DNA of 48,622 bases from Candidatus Staskawiczbacteria bacterium RIFCSPHIGHO2_02_FULL_43_16 (lineage in GTDB: Bacteria; Patescibacteriota; Minisyncoccia; Minisyncoccales; Staskawiczbacteraceae), in NCBI GenBank assembly GCA_001821935.1, contig MHOU01000010.1, positions 45,157 to 93,778 of the forward strand, in the 5' to 3' direction. Position 1 is the first letter of the stretch. Each line of letters opens with the position of its first letter. Of this stretch, positions 6,478 to 48,622 are shown one piece after another. A program made the translations under genes and the position numbers. The notes under the pieces are model-generated. The model did not search any database. It saw nothing but the letters and a program-made list of their open reading frames with translations, and was not told the origin of the DNA.

Positions 6478-6768
6478 ATGATAAGTAAAGAAGAGGTGCA
6501 ACATATTGCAAAATTAGCGAGATTGGAATTGACTGAACAGGAAACCGAAAAAATGCAGAAAGACATGTCTGCGATTTTGGATTATTTTGATGTACTGAAA
6601 AAAGCACCCAAAATAAAATCTAGTCCCGTGGTTCGGACTACAGGACTAAAAGAAAACGCGACCAGGAAAGATTTGGTGGTGGAAAGGCCGGCCAGTTTGG
6701 CCAACAATTTGGTTGGCGCCGCACCGGACAGAAAAGATGATTATATTAAGGTGAAATCAATTTTGTAA
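6478..6768 (+). CDS. gatC: Glu/Asp-tRNA amidotransferase subunit C
   Basis: 96 aa. EEVQHIAKLARLELTEQETEKM is the GatC signature. It contains the in-frame 28-nt repeat at 6621..6648. Confidence 0.85.
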   Translation: MISKEEVQHIAKLARLELTEQETEKMQKDMSAILDYFDVLKKAPKIKSSPVVRTTGLKENATRKDLVVERPASLANNLVGAAPDRKDDYIKVKSIL

Positions 6769-6859
6769 TTTTAAATTTTTAATTTTGTAAATAATTCGTC
6801 AATTTTTAAACATTTAAGCATTATTTTAAAATTAGAAATTAAAAATTAGAAATTCTCAG

Positions 6860-8278
6860 ATGAATCTGTTAGACCTGACAATCATAGAACTACATGAGGG
6901 TTTTAAAAAAAAGCAATTTACTTCAACCGAGGTAACCAAGGCTTATTTGGAGCAAATTAAAAAAACCGATGGCCAAATTGGCGCCTATTTAACCGTGACC
7001 GAAGAATTGGCTCTGGCGCAGGCCGAAGCGGCTGATAAAATCATTGCCACTAAGAAAGAGTTTCCCATGCTTTGTGGTATTCCATTTTCTGTAAAAGATT
7101 TGATTATGGTGGAGGGTCAAATATGTACTGCTGGTTCTAAGATATTGGAAAAGTATGTGGCGCCCTATGACGCTACGGTTATTAAAAAGTTGAATGCGCA
7201 AGGGGCGGTAGTTTTAGGAAAAGTAAACTTAGATGAGTTTGCTATGGGTAGTTCTACGGAAAATTCCGCCTATAAAGTTACTAAAAATCCGCACGATATA
7301 ACCAGAGTTGCTGGTGGAACTTCAGGAGGCTCTGCGGCGTCGGTTGCGGCTAAACAGGCCGTGTTCTCACTAGGAACTGATACAGGGGGCTCTATAAGAC
7401 AGCCAGCTTCGTTTTGTGGGGTGGTGGGTCTAAGAACTACTTATGGCAGTGTTTCGCGCTATGGAGTGGTTGCTGATGCTTCTTCGCTTGATCAAGTGGG
7501 GCCCATTGCAAAAACCGTTGAAGACGCAAAAATTATTTTTGAAGCCATTTCTGGGAAAGATGCCATGGACGCCACATCGGTTGATTATAAATTTAAAGAT
7601 ATTAATGTTGAATTAAAGGGGTTGAAAATTGGGGTGCCAAAAGAGTATTTCGCCAAGGGTATTGATCCCAAAGTGGAAAAAATAATCCGCGAAGCAATTA
7701 AAAAAGCTCAAGACGCCGGCGCTAAAATTTTCCAAATAAGTTTGCCAAGTTCTAAATATGCGTTGGCGGCTTATTATATTATCCAAACTTCGGAAGCCTC
7801 AGCTAATTTGGCGCGCTATGATGGCATAAAATATGGACTATCAAGTCCGGCCGAAAAATTATTGGATGTATATATAAAAAGCCGGGGAGCGGGCTTTGGG
7901 GCGGAAGTAAAACGCAGGATTATGACGGGAACTTACAGCTTGTCCAGCGGATATTACGACGCCTATTATAAAAAGGCCCAAGAAGTGCGCCAATTGATTA
8001 CCCAAGATTTTGAAAACGCATTTAAAAAAGTAGACGTGATTTTCGCACCAGTTTCACCCTTCCCCGCATTTAAAATAGGCGAAAACACCGACAATCCTTT
8101 GGCCATGTATTTGGCGGATATTTATACCGTTTCAGTTAATTTGGCGTATTTGCCAGGCCTTTCGTTGCCCACGGGGAAGGTGGGCAAGTTGCCAGTCGGT
8201 TTGCAGATTATTGGCAACCACTTTGAAGAAAACAAAATTCTTTCTGTGGCTTCACAGATGGAAAGTATGTTAAGATAA
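6860..8278 (+). CDS. gatA: Glu/Asp-tRNA amidotransferase subunit A (amidase signature family)
   Basis: GGSSGGSAA amidase signature and 472 aa length. Confidence 0.9.
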   Translation: MNLLDLTIIELHEGFKKKQFTSTEVTKAYLEQIKKTDGQIGAYLTVTEELALAQAEAADKIIATKKEFPMLCGIPFSVKDLIMVEGQICTAGSKILEKYVAPYDATVIKKLNAQGAVVLGKVNLDEFAMGSSTENSAYKVTKNPHDITRVAGGTSGGSAASVAAKQAVFSLGTDTGGSIRQPASFCGVVGLRTTYGSVSRYGVVADASSLDQVGPIAKTVEDAKIIFEAISGKDAMDATSVDYKFKDINVELKGLKIGVPKEYFAKGIDPKVEKIIREAIKKAQDAGAKIFQISLPSSKYALAAYYIIQTSEASANLARYDGIKYGLSSPAEKLLDVYIKSRGAGFGAEVKRRIMTGTYSLSSGYYDAYYKKAQEVRQLITQDFENAFKKVDVIFAPVSPFPAFKIGENTDNPLAMYLADIYTVSVNLAYLPGLSLPTGKVGKLPVGLQIIGNHFEENKILSVASQMESMLR

Positions 8279-23559: not shown

Positions 23560-23834
23560 CTAGGGCGCCAGTTCATATTATAACTTATGGTAGCGAGTAA
23601 ATTCGGGCAAGATTCAAGGCGCAACGAGGAAACGTATCCTCTGCGATACGTTGACGAAGTTGCAACGATGAAGCTTGCCCGAATTCACTCGCCCAAAGGG
23701 AAACCAAAAAATGGCTGATTTCTTCGTTTTTCCTCGTCGGCGATACACTGCGGTATCGCCTCCTCGGAAGAAACCTTGAAATCATCTCATTTTTTGGCTT
23801 CTACCATAAGTCCTAATATGAACTGGCACCCTAG
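23560..23834. mobile_element. MITE-like structured element, copy 2 (~275 bp; 34-bp TIRs CTAGGGCGCCAGTTCATATTATAACTTATGGTAG)
   Basis: TIRs match with 3-4 mismatches. The core aligns to copy 1 (GGCAAGATTCAAGGCGC, GCAACGATGAAGCTTGCC, CATTTTTTG(A)GCTTCTA). The internal stem shows compensatory changes. Confidence 0.55.
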
Positions 23835-23877
23835 AGCGCGAAAGTTAAATTTTGGCGCTTATCCTAATCTCAATCCC

Positions 23878-35822: not shown

Positions 35823-36104
35823 TTATGGATGGCCGACAGAAAAAGACAACCATGCGCCAACCGCCAGGGAGTACTCCGCGGTACTATCTTGTCCGCTTTT
35901 GACGATGATACCTAGTTTTTCGAGTTTGTTAATGTACTCGCAAACCTTGGCTTCGTCCCACACCGCCAATGTAACGAGATCACGCATTGATAGGCTTATC
36001 TTGTTTTGTTTGGCGCGGAAGAGTTCCGCTTGGATGTAAAGCTTTTTTAAGCTATCGGGATCGTTGATGCCGATCTTGTTGGCGCTAACACAATCTTGCA
36101 GCAT
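35823..36104 (-). CDS. Hypothetical protein, possibly winged-helix-like
   Basis: 93 aa. An intrinsic terminator (GAACCCG-gccttgatggt-CGGGTTC followed by T7 on the minus strand) follows its stop. Confidence 0.4.
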   Translation of the reverse strand: MLQDCVSANKIGINDPDSLKKLYIQAELFRAKQNKISLSMRDLVTLAVWDEAKVCEYINKLEKLGIIVKSGQDSTAEYSLAVGAWLSFSVGHP

Positions 36105-36232
36105 AGCTTTTTTCTCCGGTGGTTGAATAGAATCAAAGGGCGACTAAGTTAGATTCTATACTGTTCATTGAATTTGTCAAACCTTGTTCTCTAAATTTCT
36201 AAAAGGTATAATGACTGAATAAGATAATAAAG

Positions 36233-47773: not shown

Positions 47774-48157
47774 GCCATCTTGAAATGAGGGAGGTAAGTA
47801 GCAAGTGAAAACCAAGCACTCATTTTTGTACATTAAGCCAGGGGGTGGATTGCGTGTCGTTGGCACGAGCGGCGGCACCTTTTTCGGTTGCGCCTAGGGT
47901 CAGGGTAACGGGAAAAGAACCAGTAATAATCGTGACTGGACAGTTCACCTCTTGTAATTTTCAGGGAAAAAGGAATGGGCTGGCCAGCCTATTGGCGCTC
48001 CGGGTTCAGTTTCGTTAACTGACGACGAGGTCTTCCACGCGGCCCATTTCCTCTTTTTTCAATGTGTCCAAAAATGAGTGCTCGGTAAAGTAACTTGTTT
48101 AAAATTAGTTTTTGAAAGTTGTTTCGAATAAGCTTAATACGTGCTTAACGTATATAT

Positions 48158-48622
48158 TATTTGAGAGTTTGATCCTAGCTCAGGGTGAACGCTGGAAATG
48201 TGGATACCGGCATGCAAGTCAAGGGGCCCAGGGATGTAGACTCTGAACGCGAATCTAAATTGAGAAGCGAAAAAATGTGATAATTTCAATGTTTCTTGCG
48301 ACGAAATGTAGTGACTACTACATTGAGGAGTAAAAACGAAGAAATTAGCCATTTTTTCGCTTCCCTTCGGGCTTTCATATTTTGATTATCTTCTGCGTCT
48401 TCGGAGCTTAACGATGCCTACAGCATCGCTTCGCTCCTCAGTTCTTGAATATAATCAAAATATGGAAGCTCAATTGATTCTGTTCAGAGTCTACATCCTT
48501 AAGGCACCGGCGAACGGCTTAGTAACACGTGGATACATACCGCAAAGTGGAGCACAGCTCGTCGAAAGACGGGGTAATTCTCCATAATCCCGCAAGGGTA
48601 AACACGCAAGTGGCTTTGTGAA
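48158..48622 (+). rRNA. rrs: 16S rRNA, 5' portion (runs off the window end), with a ~230-nt insertion in helix 6 (48252..48480)
   Basis: GAGAGTTTGATCCTAGCTCAGGGTGAACGCTGG...CATGCAAGTC...GGCGAACGGCTTAGTAACACGTGG match conserved 16S 5' blocks. The extended helix GGGATGTAGACTCTGAACG/TGTTCAGAGTCTACATCC encloses the inserted sequence. Confidence 0.9.

What the first reader, a model, noticed from the sequence alone, without database searches (positions are those of the whole stretch)
48252..48480. ~230-nt structured insertion in 16S rRNA helix 6 (V1)
Conserved 16S blocks flank an extended helix (GGGATGTAGACTCTGAACG pairs with TGTTCAGAGTCTACATCC). The helix encloses an AT-rich segment with its own perfect stems: GAAGCGAAAAAATG/CATTTTTTCGCTTC and GATGC-ctaca-GCATC. 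It has no ORF and is too small for a group I or II intron, so an RNase III-excised intervening sequence or an expansion segment is more likely.
Basis: partly seen in the sequence, partly recalled or inferred. Interest (0 to 1): 0.5.

Follow-up and report, generated by a model that had tools for sequence, protein, structure and literature searches.

The report
Palindromic repeat element inside 16S helix 6
The extra 274 bases in helix 6 of this candidate-phyla-radiation bacterium's 16S rRNA gene are one copy of a widespread, previously unnamed family of non-coding hairpin repeats, which ties the puzzling gene-less insertions in these bacteria's rRNA genes to dispersed repeat elements.

Summary
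It spans 274 nt (48229-48502) and replaces the GCAA tetraloop of a minimal helix 6. All roughly 14 sampled relatives (Candidatus Staskawiczbacteria) keep that tetraloop. The insert folds into a ~25-bp closing stem plus two ~100-nt arms (z = -14).

The main new result is that the insert is not unique. Two more copies lie in the same window, at 22854-23127 and 23560-23834. A single motif scan recovered about 95 further copies in metagenome contigs. The family is about 275 nt long and non-coding, with no Rfam match. Its pairing is strongly conserved: 53 of 68 pairs show compensatory changes. Both strands fold equally well.

Copies sit in short intergenic spacers in either orientation. They also recur in the apical loops of rRNA hairpins: 16S h6, 16S h17, and a 23S hairpin where the copy is antisense. 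Relatives lack all three window copies at the orthologous sites. I found no clean target-site duplication and no linked transposase.

Best reading: a palindromic repeat resembling a MITE or a Rickettsia palindromic element landed in h6, where it has the anatomy of an intervening sequence. I think RNase III most likely excises it, but this is untested. Retention as an expansion on the spur is the main rival.

The parts
48157..48622 (+). 5' part of the 16S rRNA gene, cut off by the window end. The full gene on the identical contig L004 is about 4.7 kb and carries five insertions.
   Evidence: Rfam RF00177, 87.3 bits, model positions 1-226; L004 map
48226..48228 (+). 5' strand (GCC) of the native minimal helix-6 stem. 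It pairs with GGC at 48503-48505.
   Evidence: Relatives read GGGGCC-GCAA-GGCACC; MFE fold
48229..48502 (+). Copy C1 of the repeat family: a 274-nt insert that replaces the GCAA tetraloop of helix 6.
   Evidence: Absent from all Staskawiczbacteria 16S genes fetched; nhmmer E = 2.4e-72 against the family profile
48230..48255 (+). 5' strand of closing stem P1 (the terminal inverted repeat), with C48250 bulged.
   Evidence: P1 pairing covaries across the family
48476..48500 (+). 3' strand of closing stem P1. About 25 bp in all, coaxial with helix 6.
48264..48363 (+). Arm A. The lower stem GAAGCGAAAAAATG/CATTTTTTCGCTTC is the most conserved part of the family.
48364..48372 (+). Junction motif CCTTCGGGC between the two arms. 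It is conserved, but it was part of the search pattern.
48369..48469 (+). Arm B, an imperfect ~47-bp hairpin capped by GATGC-ctaca-GCATC.
48503..48505 (+). 3' strand (GGC) of the native helix-6 stem.
22854..23127 (-). Copy C2 (274 nt). It lies inside a diverged duplicate of the 3' two-thirds of tRNA-Ile, just downstream of the intact tRNA-Ile gene.
   Evidence: blastn and nhmmer E = 1.8e-79; fold z = -14.6; absent at the same site in relatives L148 and L149
23560..23834 (-). Copy C3 (275 nt), intergenic, upstream of an MBL-fold hydrolase gene.
   Evidence: nhmmer E = 4.9e-80; fold z = -17.4; absent at the same site in L148 and L149
22741..22815 (+). Intact tRNA-Ile(GAT). This is context for C2, not part of the element.

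Best explanation
The insert is one copy of a dispersed, non-coding, almost fully self-complementary repeat element of about 275 nt. The element has a closing stem, two long arms and a short conserved junction. It resembles a MITE (miniature inverted-repeat transposable element) or a Rickettsia palindromic element. This family is common in Staskawiczbacteria-like CPR (candidate phyla radiation) genomes. Shown: one copy entered the GNRA tetraloop of an already minimal helix 6 of the 16S rRNA gene in this lineage only. Shown: the family mostly occupies intergenic spacers in either orientation, and it has entered apical loops of rRNA hairpins at least three separate times (16S h6, 16S h17, 23S). 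Inferred: such copies survive in rRNA because the element's own inverted-repeat ends make a long helix that stacks on the host helix and points into solvent, so the ribosome core is undisturbed. Inferred, not shown: in the precursor rRNA the ~25-bp perfect duplex is a substrate for RNase III. RNase III would cut the element out without religation, as for classical intervening sequences. This would leave a 16S made of a ~75-90-nt 5' piece and the main body, held together by base pairing. The way the element moves is unknown.
For: The insertion is lineage-specific. About 14 Staskawiczbacteria 16S genes have 32-36 nt between ATGCAAGT and ACGGCTTAGT, against 302 nt here. The closest relatives read GGGGCC-GCAA-GGCACC. 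It belongs to a repeat family. C2 and C3 lie in the same window. There are 96 hits in 93 of 117 metagenome loci, 71 of them full length and about 59 distinct. The structure is conserved: 93.5% of cells are paired against 79.0 +/- 0.3 in shuffles, 509 cells show compensatory changes against 140 +/- 10, and slid controls give at most 128. The symmetry is at DNA level: sense and antisense fold energies are equal (p = 0.45). There is no conserved ORF, no Rfam match, and no recurrent neighbouring gene. Copies occur in both orientations relative to neighbours. Other rRNA copies exist: 16S h17 in L090/L102/L131, and a 272-nt antisense copy in a 23S hairpin loop in L064. There are also copies abutting the 23S 5' end (L082) and just upstream of it (L066). 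Presence or absence varies at all three window sites. For the RNase III step: the anatomy equals that of known intervening sequences, in which a tetraloop is replaced by a stem-loop with a ~28-bp terminal stem cut by RNase III (PMC4990558). CPR rRNA insertions are reported as removed from transcripts (PMC11270868; PMC9698310). Full-length RNase III genes lie on two element-bearing contigs. RNase III cuts Correia repeat transcripts at their inverted repeats (PMC10969869).
Against: I examined no RNA data, so excision, its enzyme and the cut sites are inference. No RNase III gene was seen in this window, and the rest of the source genome was not available. Helix 6 is solvent-exposed, so retention is equally compatible with a working ribosome. 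No clean target-site duplication appeared at the four filled/empty comparisons with sequence, C1, C3, L090 and L064; C2 sits in a duplicated tRNA segment and could not be scored. No autonomous partner or transposase was found, so the label 'MITE' is only partly earned. The compensatory changes could come partly from hairpin-templated correction in palindromic DNA rather than from selection. The family was sampled through one 18-base motif, which biases what looks invariant and probably which lineages were reached.
Confidence: 0.7

Rival explanations
1. Retained expansion segment. The same repeat copy is transcribed and stays in the mature 16S rRNA as a ~270-nt three-helix extension of the spur (helix 6), with no processing.
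For: The insertion is exactly at the apex of a peripheral helix and stacks coaxially on it. From my own knowledge, helix 6 points into solvent and tolerates engineered hairpin tags in E. coli. The copy is intact, well paired and fixed in all strain variants.
Against: CPR rRNA insertions are reported to be absent from transcripts. CPR ribosomes are otherwise trimmed at the surface; relatives have reduced h6 to 3-4 bp plus a tetraloop. A perfect duplex of 20 bp or more is unlikely to escape RNase III where that enzyme is present.
Confidence: 0.3
2. Functional structured RNA or DNA element. The family is kept because it does something for the host, for example as a terminator, an RNA-stability element or a protein-binding site. 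Alternatively it moves by a new hairpin-loop-directed mechanism. On this view the rRNA copies are not mere passengers.
For: Sequence and pairing are strongly conserved across many contigs. The junction and lower arm A are conserved. Some copies sit in loops of pre-existing hairpins (flank complementarity is weakly enriched, 2/200 shuffles). RNA genes are over-represented among contexts: about 6 of roughly 60 distinct copies lie in or next to rRNA or tRNA genes. There is no target-site duplication and no transposase nearby.
Against: Copies occur in both orientations with no strand asymmetry. Copies are absent from orthologous sites in close relatives, so no site needs one. Much of the apparent invariance was imposed by the search pattern. 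There is no Rfam ribozyme or riboswitch match.
Confidence: 0.12
3. Self-splicing or protein-spliced intron. This would be a degenerate group I or II intron or an archaeal-type bulge-helix-bulge intron, removed with exon ligation.
For: The same 16S gene carries an Rfam group I intron and two LAGLIDADG-encoding insertions. CPR rRNA genes are rich in introns.
Against: There is no group I or II match even at E<=10. The site is a variable hairpin apex rather than a conserved core sequence. By reading the fold, I saw no bulge-helix-bulge motif in the closing stem. The same element lies in intergenic DNA and in the antisense orientation inside a 23S gene. An intron with oriented catalytic structure would not behave that way.
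Confidence: 0.03

Closest known systems
RNase III-excised intervening sequences of bacterial rRNA (23S helices 9, 25, 45 in Salmonella, Leptospira, Coxiella and others; 16S examples such as Clostridium paradoxum)
   Same: In both, a small apical tetraloop of a peripheral rRNA helix is replaced by a long stem-loop. Both are bordered by complementary ends (28-bp stem in Coxiella, ~25 bp here). Both are sporadic, being present in one lineage and absent in close relatives. Both occur in a reduced-genome organism with a single rRNA gene (for the known cases; here).
   Different: Excision is not shown here. The site is 16S helix 6, not a classical 23S site. The insert has no ORF, whereas many 23S intervening sequences encode an S23p-type protein. 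Here the element demonstrably has many non-ribosomal copies in the same and other genomes. For classical intervening sequences a transposon origin is only a hypothesis (Burgin 1990, as quoted).
CPR rRNA 'insertion sequences' (Brown et al. 2015; Tsurumaki et al. 2024, PMC11270868), the class that is neither intron nor ORF-bearing
   Same: It is a CPR 16S gene with several insertions. This one has no ORF and no intron match, and it lies in the short size range that the authors leave uncharacterised and suspect to be RNase III-type intervening sequences.
   Different: As far as I could read, that work does not link this class to a dispersed repeat family. Here the insert is shown to belong to one. 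The insertion-site maps of that paper are figures and could not be read.
Rickettsia palindromic elements (RPE)
   Same: Both are non-coding palindromic repeats with terminal inverted repeats in reduced genomes. Both are found in intergenic DNA and inside genes, including structured RNA genes (tmRNA and RNase P RNA). For both, target-site duplication is unclear and no transposase is known (PMC2229807).
   Different: RPEs are 105-146 bp simple stem-loops, often inserted in frame in protein genes. This family is about 275 nt with a branched fold. I saw no copies inside protein-coding genes. Its RNA-gene targets are rRNA hairpin loops and a tRNA.
Correia / NEMIS elements of Neisseria and other bacterial MITEs (ERIC, RUP)
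   Same: Both are small, non-coding, dispersed and bounded by terminal inverted repeats that form long hairpins in transcripts. Correia hairpins are cut by RNase III at the inverted repeats.
   Different: Those elements have TA target-site duplications and are 100-160 bp. Here I saw no consistent duplication. The element is larger and branched, and its outer stem varies through compensatory changes around a loose consensus (AGGGG...CCCCT).

Membership tests
rRNA intervening sequence (RNase III type) | Lies in an rRNA gene and replaces the apical loop of a peripheral, variable helix | tested here: met
   GCAA tetraloop of helix 6 in relatives against the 274-nt insert here
rRNA intervening sequence (RNase III type) | Complementary termini forming a long (about 20 bp or more) stem | tested here: met
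   20 + 5 bp closing stem with one bulge
rRNA intervening sequence (RNase III type) | Sporadic distribution among close relatives | tested here: met
   Absent from about 14 Staskawiczbacteria 16S genes, including ones 92-97% identical in the exons
rRNA intervening sequence (RNase III type) | Excised from the precursor by RNase III without religation, giving fragmented rRNA | not testable with these tools
   No RNA data. RNase III genes were found only on two other element-bearing contigs, not in this window.
CPR rRNA insertion, uncharacterised ORF-less class (Tsurumaki 2024) | Insertion of 100 bp or more in a CPR rRNA gene with no group I/II intron match and no annotated ORF | tested here: met
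   class definition. I did not run the short ORFs (72 aa or less) against Pfam.
MITE (miniature inverted-repeat transposable element) | Small, non-coding, with multiple dispersed copies | tested here: met
   Three copies in 48.6 kb and about 95 in metagenome loci; no conserved ORF
MITE (miniature inverted-repeat transposable element) | Terminal inverted repeats shared by family members | tested here: met
   Consensus tAGGGGTGCGGGATTCGAAC...GTTCGAATCCCGCACCCCTa, with many compensatory variants
MITE (miniature inverted-repeat transposable element) | Target-site duplication flanking each copy | tested here: not met
   No shared direct repeat at the filled/empty pairs compared by sequence: C1, C3, L090 h17 and L064 23S. 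C2 lies in a duplicated tRNA segment and could not be scored. Loop bases are replaced rather than duplicated. The junctions may have been reshaped since insertion, so this is weak.
MITE (miniature inverted-repeat transposable element) | A related autonomous element or transposase with the same ends | tested here: inconclusive
   No recurrent gene within 3 kb of about 58 copies. Whole genomes were not searched.
Group I / group II intron | Match to the catalytic-core covariance models | tested here: not met
   No RF00028 or RF00029 hit at E<=10 on 48150-48622. The same model does find the intron at L004 6657-7098.
REPIN/RAYT-type repeats | Hairpin repeats that co-occur with a single-copy HUH (RAYT) transposase gene in the same genome | not tested
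   This needs complete genomes. The scan of genome contigs had already been used.

The most novel reading that the evidence does not exclude
The family may be a new kind of mobile element or structured nucleic acid that is directed to the apical loops of hairpins. These would include rRNA, tRNA and terminator hairpins. It would move by a mechanism that makes no target-site duplication and needs no linked transposase, for example a single-copy HUH or bridge-RNA-type recombinase acting on folded single strands. If so, it could be a general source of the ORF-less insertions in CPR rRNA genes and, by extension, of bacterial rRNA intervening sequences.
Probability: 0.15. Interest if true: 0.8.

Novelty: new variant of a known kind. 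Interest (0 to 1): 0.52.

Why it matters
CPR bacteria have unusually many insertions in their rRNA genes. Introns and homing-endonuclease genes explain the large ones. The short, gene-less ones have been left 'uncharacterised'. Separately, the origin of classical rRNA intervening sequences has been open since 1990, with 'remnant of a transposition event' as one hypothesis.

Here a gene-less rRNA insertion is shown to be a full-length member of a dispersed repeat family. The same family has entered rRNA hairpin loops at least three separate times, in both orientations. That gives concrete, testable evidence that repeats seed rRNA insertions with intervening-sequence anatomy. It also supplies a search profile for annotating such insertions, which otherwise break 16S detection, primers and phylogenies. 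Finally, it adds a new, structurally conserved repeat family to genomes usually described as streamlined.

Tried and rejected
- **Group I/II intron or any Rfam family.** Nothing turned up at gathering or at E<=10 on C1, C2 or C3.
- **Coding potential.** The one frame that looks similar across copies has stops at varying places and no shared start, so the element is not coding.
- **RNA-level selection on one strand.** Sense and antisense fold energies are equal, and G-U counts are similar (281 against 337). I rejected this as support for an oriented functional RNA.
- **Linked transposase or endonuclease.** Clustering of neighbour ORFs gave only housekeeping synteny, such as FtsZ and the MBL-fold hydrolase.
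- **Fourth copy at 36061-36161.** The nhmmer hit was weak (E = 0.22) and the region shows no structure (z = +0.34). Rejected.
- **Strain variants for covariation inside C1.** L007 and L009 differ only outside the insert, near contig ends.
- **Viral origin.** There were no hits in viral contigs.
- **RNase III gene in the window.** None found.
- **Target-site duplication.** None was consistent across the four filled/empty pairs that could be compared by sequence.
- **Brown et al. 2015.** The paper is not held in the library, so its transcript evidence is cited second-hand.
- **Tsurumaki site maps.** These are figures and cannot be read.
- **Literature on MITEs in Patescibacteria or in rRNA.** I found nothing relevant.

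Full report
**1. The observation**

Rfam's bacterial SSU model aligns window 48157-48622 on the plus strand. It leaves 258 nt unaligned exactly at the loop of helix 6. The region 48225-48505 folds to -128.6 kcal/mol against -62.8 +/- 4.7 for shuffles (z = -14). The fold has four parts:
- the native 3-bp helix-6 stem, GCC/GGC;
- a 20 + 5 bp closing stem, 48230-48255 with 48476-48500;
- arm A, 48264-48363;
- arm B, 48369-48469.

Only short, unconvincing ORFs cross the region.

The window is contig MHPC01000002.1 of GCA_001820305.1, a Rifle aquifer genome. The identical 16S 5' end plus insert recurs in at least seven independent assemblies, so it is not an assembly artefact. On the longer identical contig L004 the whole 16S gene spans about 4.7 kb. 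It carries four further insertions: two with LAGLIDADG ORFs, one ORF-less, and one Rfam group I intron.

**2. The empty site**

A scan of species-representative genomes with a lineage-specific 16S motif returned about 14 Candidatus Staskawiczbacteria 16S genes. In all of them helix 6 is a minimal hairpin. The closest relatives (L025, L029; exons 92-97% identical) read GGGGCC-GCAA-GGCACC. The window reads GGGGCC-[274 nt]-GGCACC.

The insert is therefore 48229-48502. It replaces a GNRA tetraloop and is a recent, lineage-specific gain. L025's 16S gene has none of the five insertions.

**3. The insert is not unique**

A relaxed blastn of the insert against the window found two more copies, both in the opposite orientation:
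- C2, 22854-23127;
- C3, 23560-23834.

The three copies have the same length (274-275 nt) and the same fold (z = -14.6 and -17.4). Their interiors are 68-76% identical, while their closing stems differ in sequence but stay paired.

A profile built from the three finds no further copy in the window or in the relatives' rRNA loci. The profile confirms 96 copies in 93 of those loci. Of these, 71 are full length and about 59 are distinct, mostly 270-285 nt long. They come from Rifle, Hainich and other groundwater, peat and lake samples. The same motif found nothing in viral contigs.

C1's nearest relatives are copies in other organisms' contigs: L086 at 78% identity and L069/L036 at 77%. They differ from C1 by 12-13 compensatory pair changes.

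**4. Nature of the family**

- *Structure.* On 53 aligned copies, RNAalifold predicts 68 pairs, 53 of them with compensatory double changes. With controls, 93.5% of cells are paired against 79.0 +/- 0.3 in shuffles. There are 509 double-change cells against 140 +/- 10, and slid controls give at most 128.
- *Strand symmetry.* Sense and antisense strands fold equally well (-130.0 against -130.7 kcal/mol, p = 0.45). G-U counts are similar. The pairing is therefore a property of the DNA palindrome, not of one transcript.
- *Coding.* There is no conserved reading frame.
- *Known RNA families.* No Rfam family matches, even at lenient thresholds.
- *Linked genes.* No gene recurs next to the copies.
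- *Genomic position.* Copies fill short spacers between housekeeping genes in either orientation: 16 co-directional, 9 anti-directional, 7 between convergent genes and 4 between divergent genes.

Caveats apply. The columns that look invariant include the search pattern itself. In palindromic DNA, paired changes can also arise by hairpin-templated correction rather than by selection.

**5. Gain and loss, and a preference for RNA-gene hairpins**

Relatives carrying the neighbouring MBL-fold gene (85% and 76% protein identity; L148, L149) have this layout: tRNA-Ile, then a small Cys-rich ORF, then a terminator-like hairpin, then the MBL gene. They have neither C2 nor C3. In the genome of L025 the whole 1.7-kb segment is reduced to a 122-nt spacer. 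So all three window copies are absent from orthologous sites in relatives.

Other family copies lie in or beside rRNA genes:
- in the apical part of 16S helix 17 of a related organism that has no helix-6 insert (L090 = L102 = L131);
- as a 272-nt insert in the loop of a small 23S hairpin (Rfam LSU model 225-234), antisense to the rRNA (L064);
- abutting the 23S 5' end (L082) and just upstream of it (L066);
- next to tRNA genes (L144, L141, L041).

Some copies sit in the loop of pre-existing hairpins. Flank complementarity is weakly enriched (2 of 200 shuffles). None of the four filled/empty comparisons that could be read by sequence shows a clean target-site duplication. Instead a few loop bases are replaced. 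How the element moves is therefore unknown.

**6. How it most likely works in the rRNA**

Shown: the element's inverted-repeat ends extend helix 6 coaxially by about 25 bp.

From established knowledge: helix 6 (the spur) is peripheral. Classical intervening sequences have exactly this anatomy and are removed by RNase III, leaving fragmented but functional rRNA.

From the literature: CPR rRNA insertions are reported to be missing from transcripts. RNase III cuts Correia repeat hairpins at their inverted repeats.

Shown here: full-length RNase III genes occur on two contigs that carry family copies.

I therefore favour excision by RNase III without religation, at roughly 0.55. Retention as an expansion segment comes next at roughly 0.3. 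A spliced intron is close to excluded, because the same element occurs in intergenic DNA and antisense inside a 23S gene. None of these outcomes could be tested without RNA data.

**7. Comparison with what is known**

The insert works like an intervening sequence and meets its structural criteria, but the defining excision is untested. It fits the ORF-less 'uncharacterised' class of CPR rRNA insertions.

As a repeat, it is closest to Rickettsia palindromic elements. Those also occur in reduced genomes, have unclear target duplications, and have entered structured RNA genes (tmRNA and RNase P RNA). This family is twice as long, branched, and targets rRNA hairpin loops. It fails the target-site-duplication criterion of a standard MITE.

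I found no description of this family or of MITE-derived rRNA insertions in the searchable literature. That library is incomplete.

**8. Verdict**

The finding itself, a structured gene-less insertion in a CPR 16S gene, is a known phenomenon. The added value is that the insertion is a full-length member of a widespread, structurally conserved, undescribed repeat family that has entered rRNA hairpin loops repeatedly. This gives direct support to the old idea that intervening sequences derive from mobile repeats, and the idea can now be tested. Interest is moderate.

Noticed in passing
window 22659-23154: There is a nested tRNA-Ile(GAT) rearrangement. A 5' half-tRNA remnant lies at 22659-22692. 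An 11-bp inverted repeat (GTCCCGATAAA / TTTATCGGGAC) brackets small hairpins plus the intact tRNA-Ile (22741-22815), whose own flanks are complementary. A diverged copy of the tRNA's 3' two-thirds follows, interrupted by C2 at the junction of variable loop and T-stem. The tRNA 3' end is repeated at about 23128-23154. It looks like an old tRNA gene split by a unit that carries a fresh tRNA copy.
   Followed up: partly
L004 2463-7165 (identical to the window where they overlap): The complete 16S gene is about 4.7 kb with five insertions: the helix-6 repeat, an ~870-nt insert with a LAGLIDADG_2 ORF, an 808-nt ORF-less insert, an 877-nt insert with a second LAGLIDADG_2 ORF, and an Rfam group I intron near the 3' end (6657-7098). 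The gene is followed by greA, not by a 23S gene.
   Followed up: partly
family consensus (alignment A2, columns 283-302): The 3' strand of the closing stem in most copies reads GGTTCGAATCCCGCACCCCTA. This resembles a tRNA T-loop plus acceptor 3' strand, and the 5' strand is its complement. In L144 the adjacent real tRNA ends with a similar sequence. I do not know whether this reflects a tRNA origin or chance.
   Followed up: no
window 22182-23877 compared with the locus of P0010: The 1.7-kb segment between the Peptidase_S11 and MBL-fold genes holds tRNA-Ile, C2, a 111-aa Cys-rich ORF and C3. In the closest sequenced relative (contig of 661,750 bp) it is a 122-nt spacer. In L148 and L149 the small ORF starts at, or 5 nt after, the tRNA's CCA end.
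   Followed up: partly
L064 ~1538-1700 (23S, Rfam LSU model 162-170): A second ORF-less insertion of 154 nt lies in the loop of another 23S 5'-domain hairpin. It did not match the family profile and may be another kind of intervening sequence.
   Followed up: no
L097 714-997: A family copy sits inside a terminator-like hairpin (AAAAAAGCCC ... GGGGCTTTTTT) upstream of an MBL-fold homologue (63% identity). The gene arrangement matches that around C3, but the distance from the gene differs.
   Followed up: partly
L090 6210-6966: The related 16S gene has a ~756-nt insertion at a site that is empty in the window organism's gene (L004 3026/3028). This shows rapid turnover of 16S insertions between related Staskawiczbacteria.
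   Followed up: no
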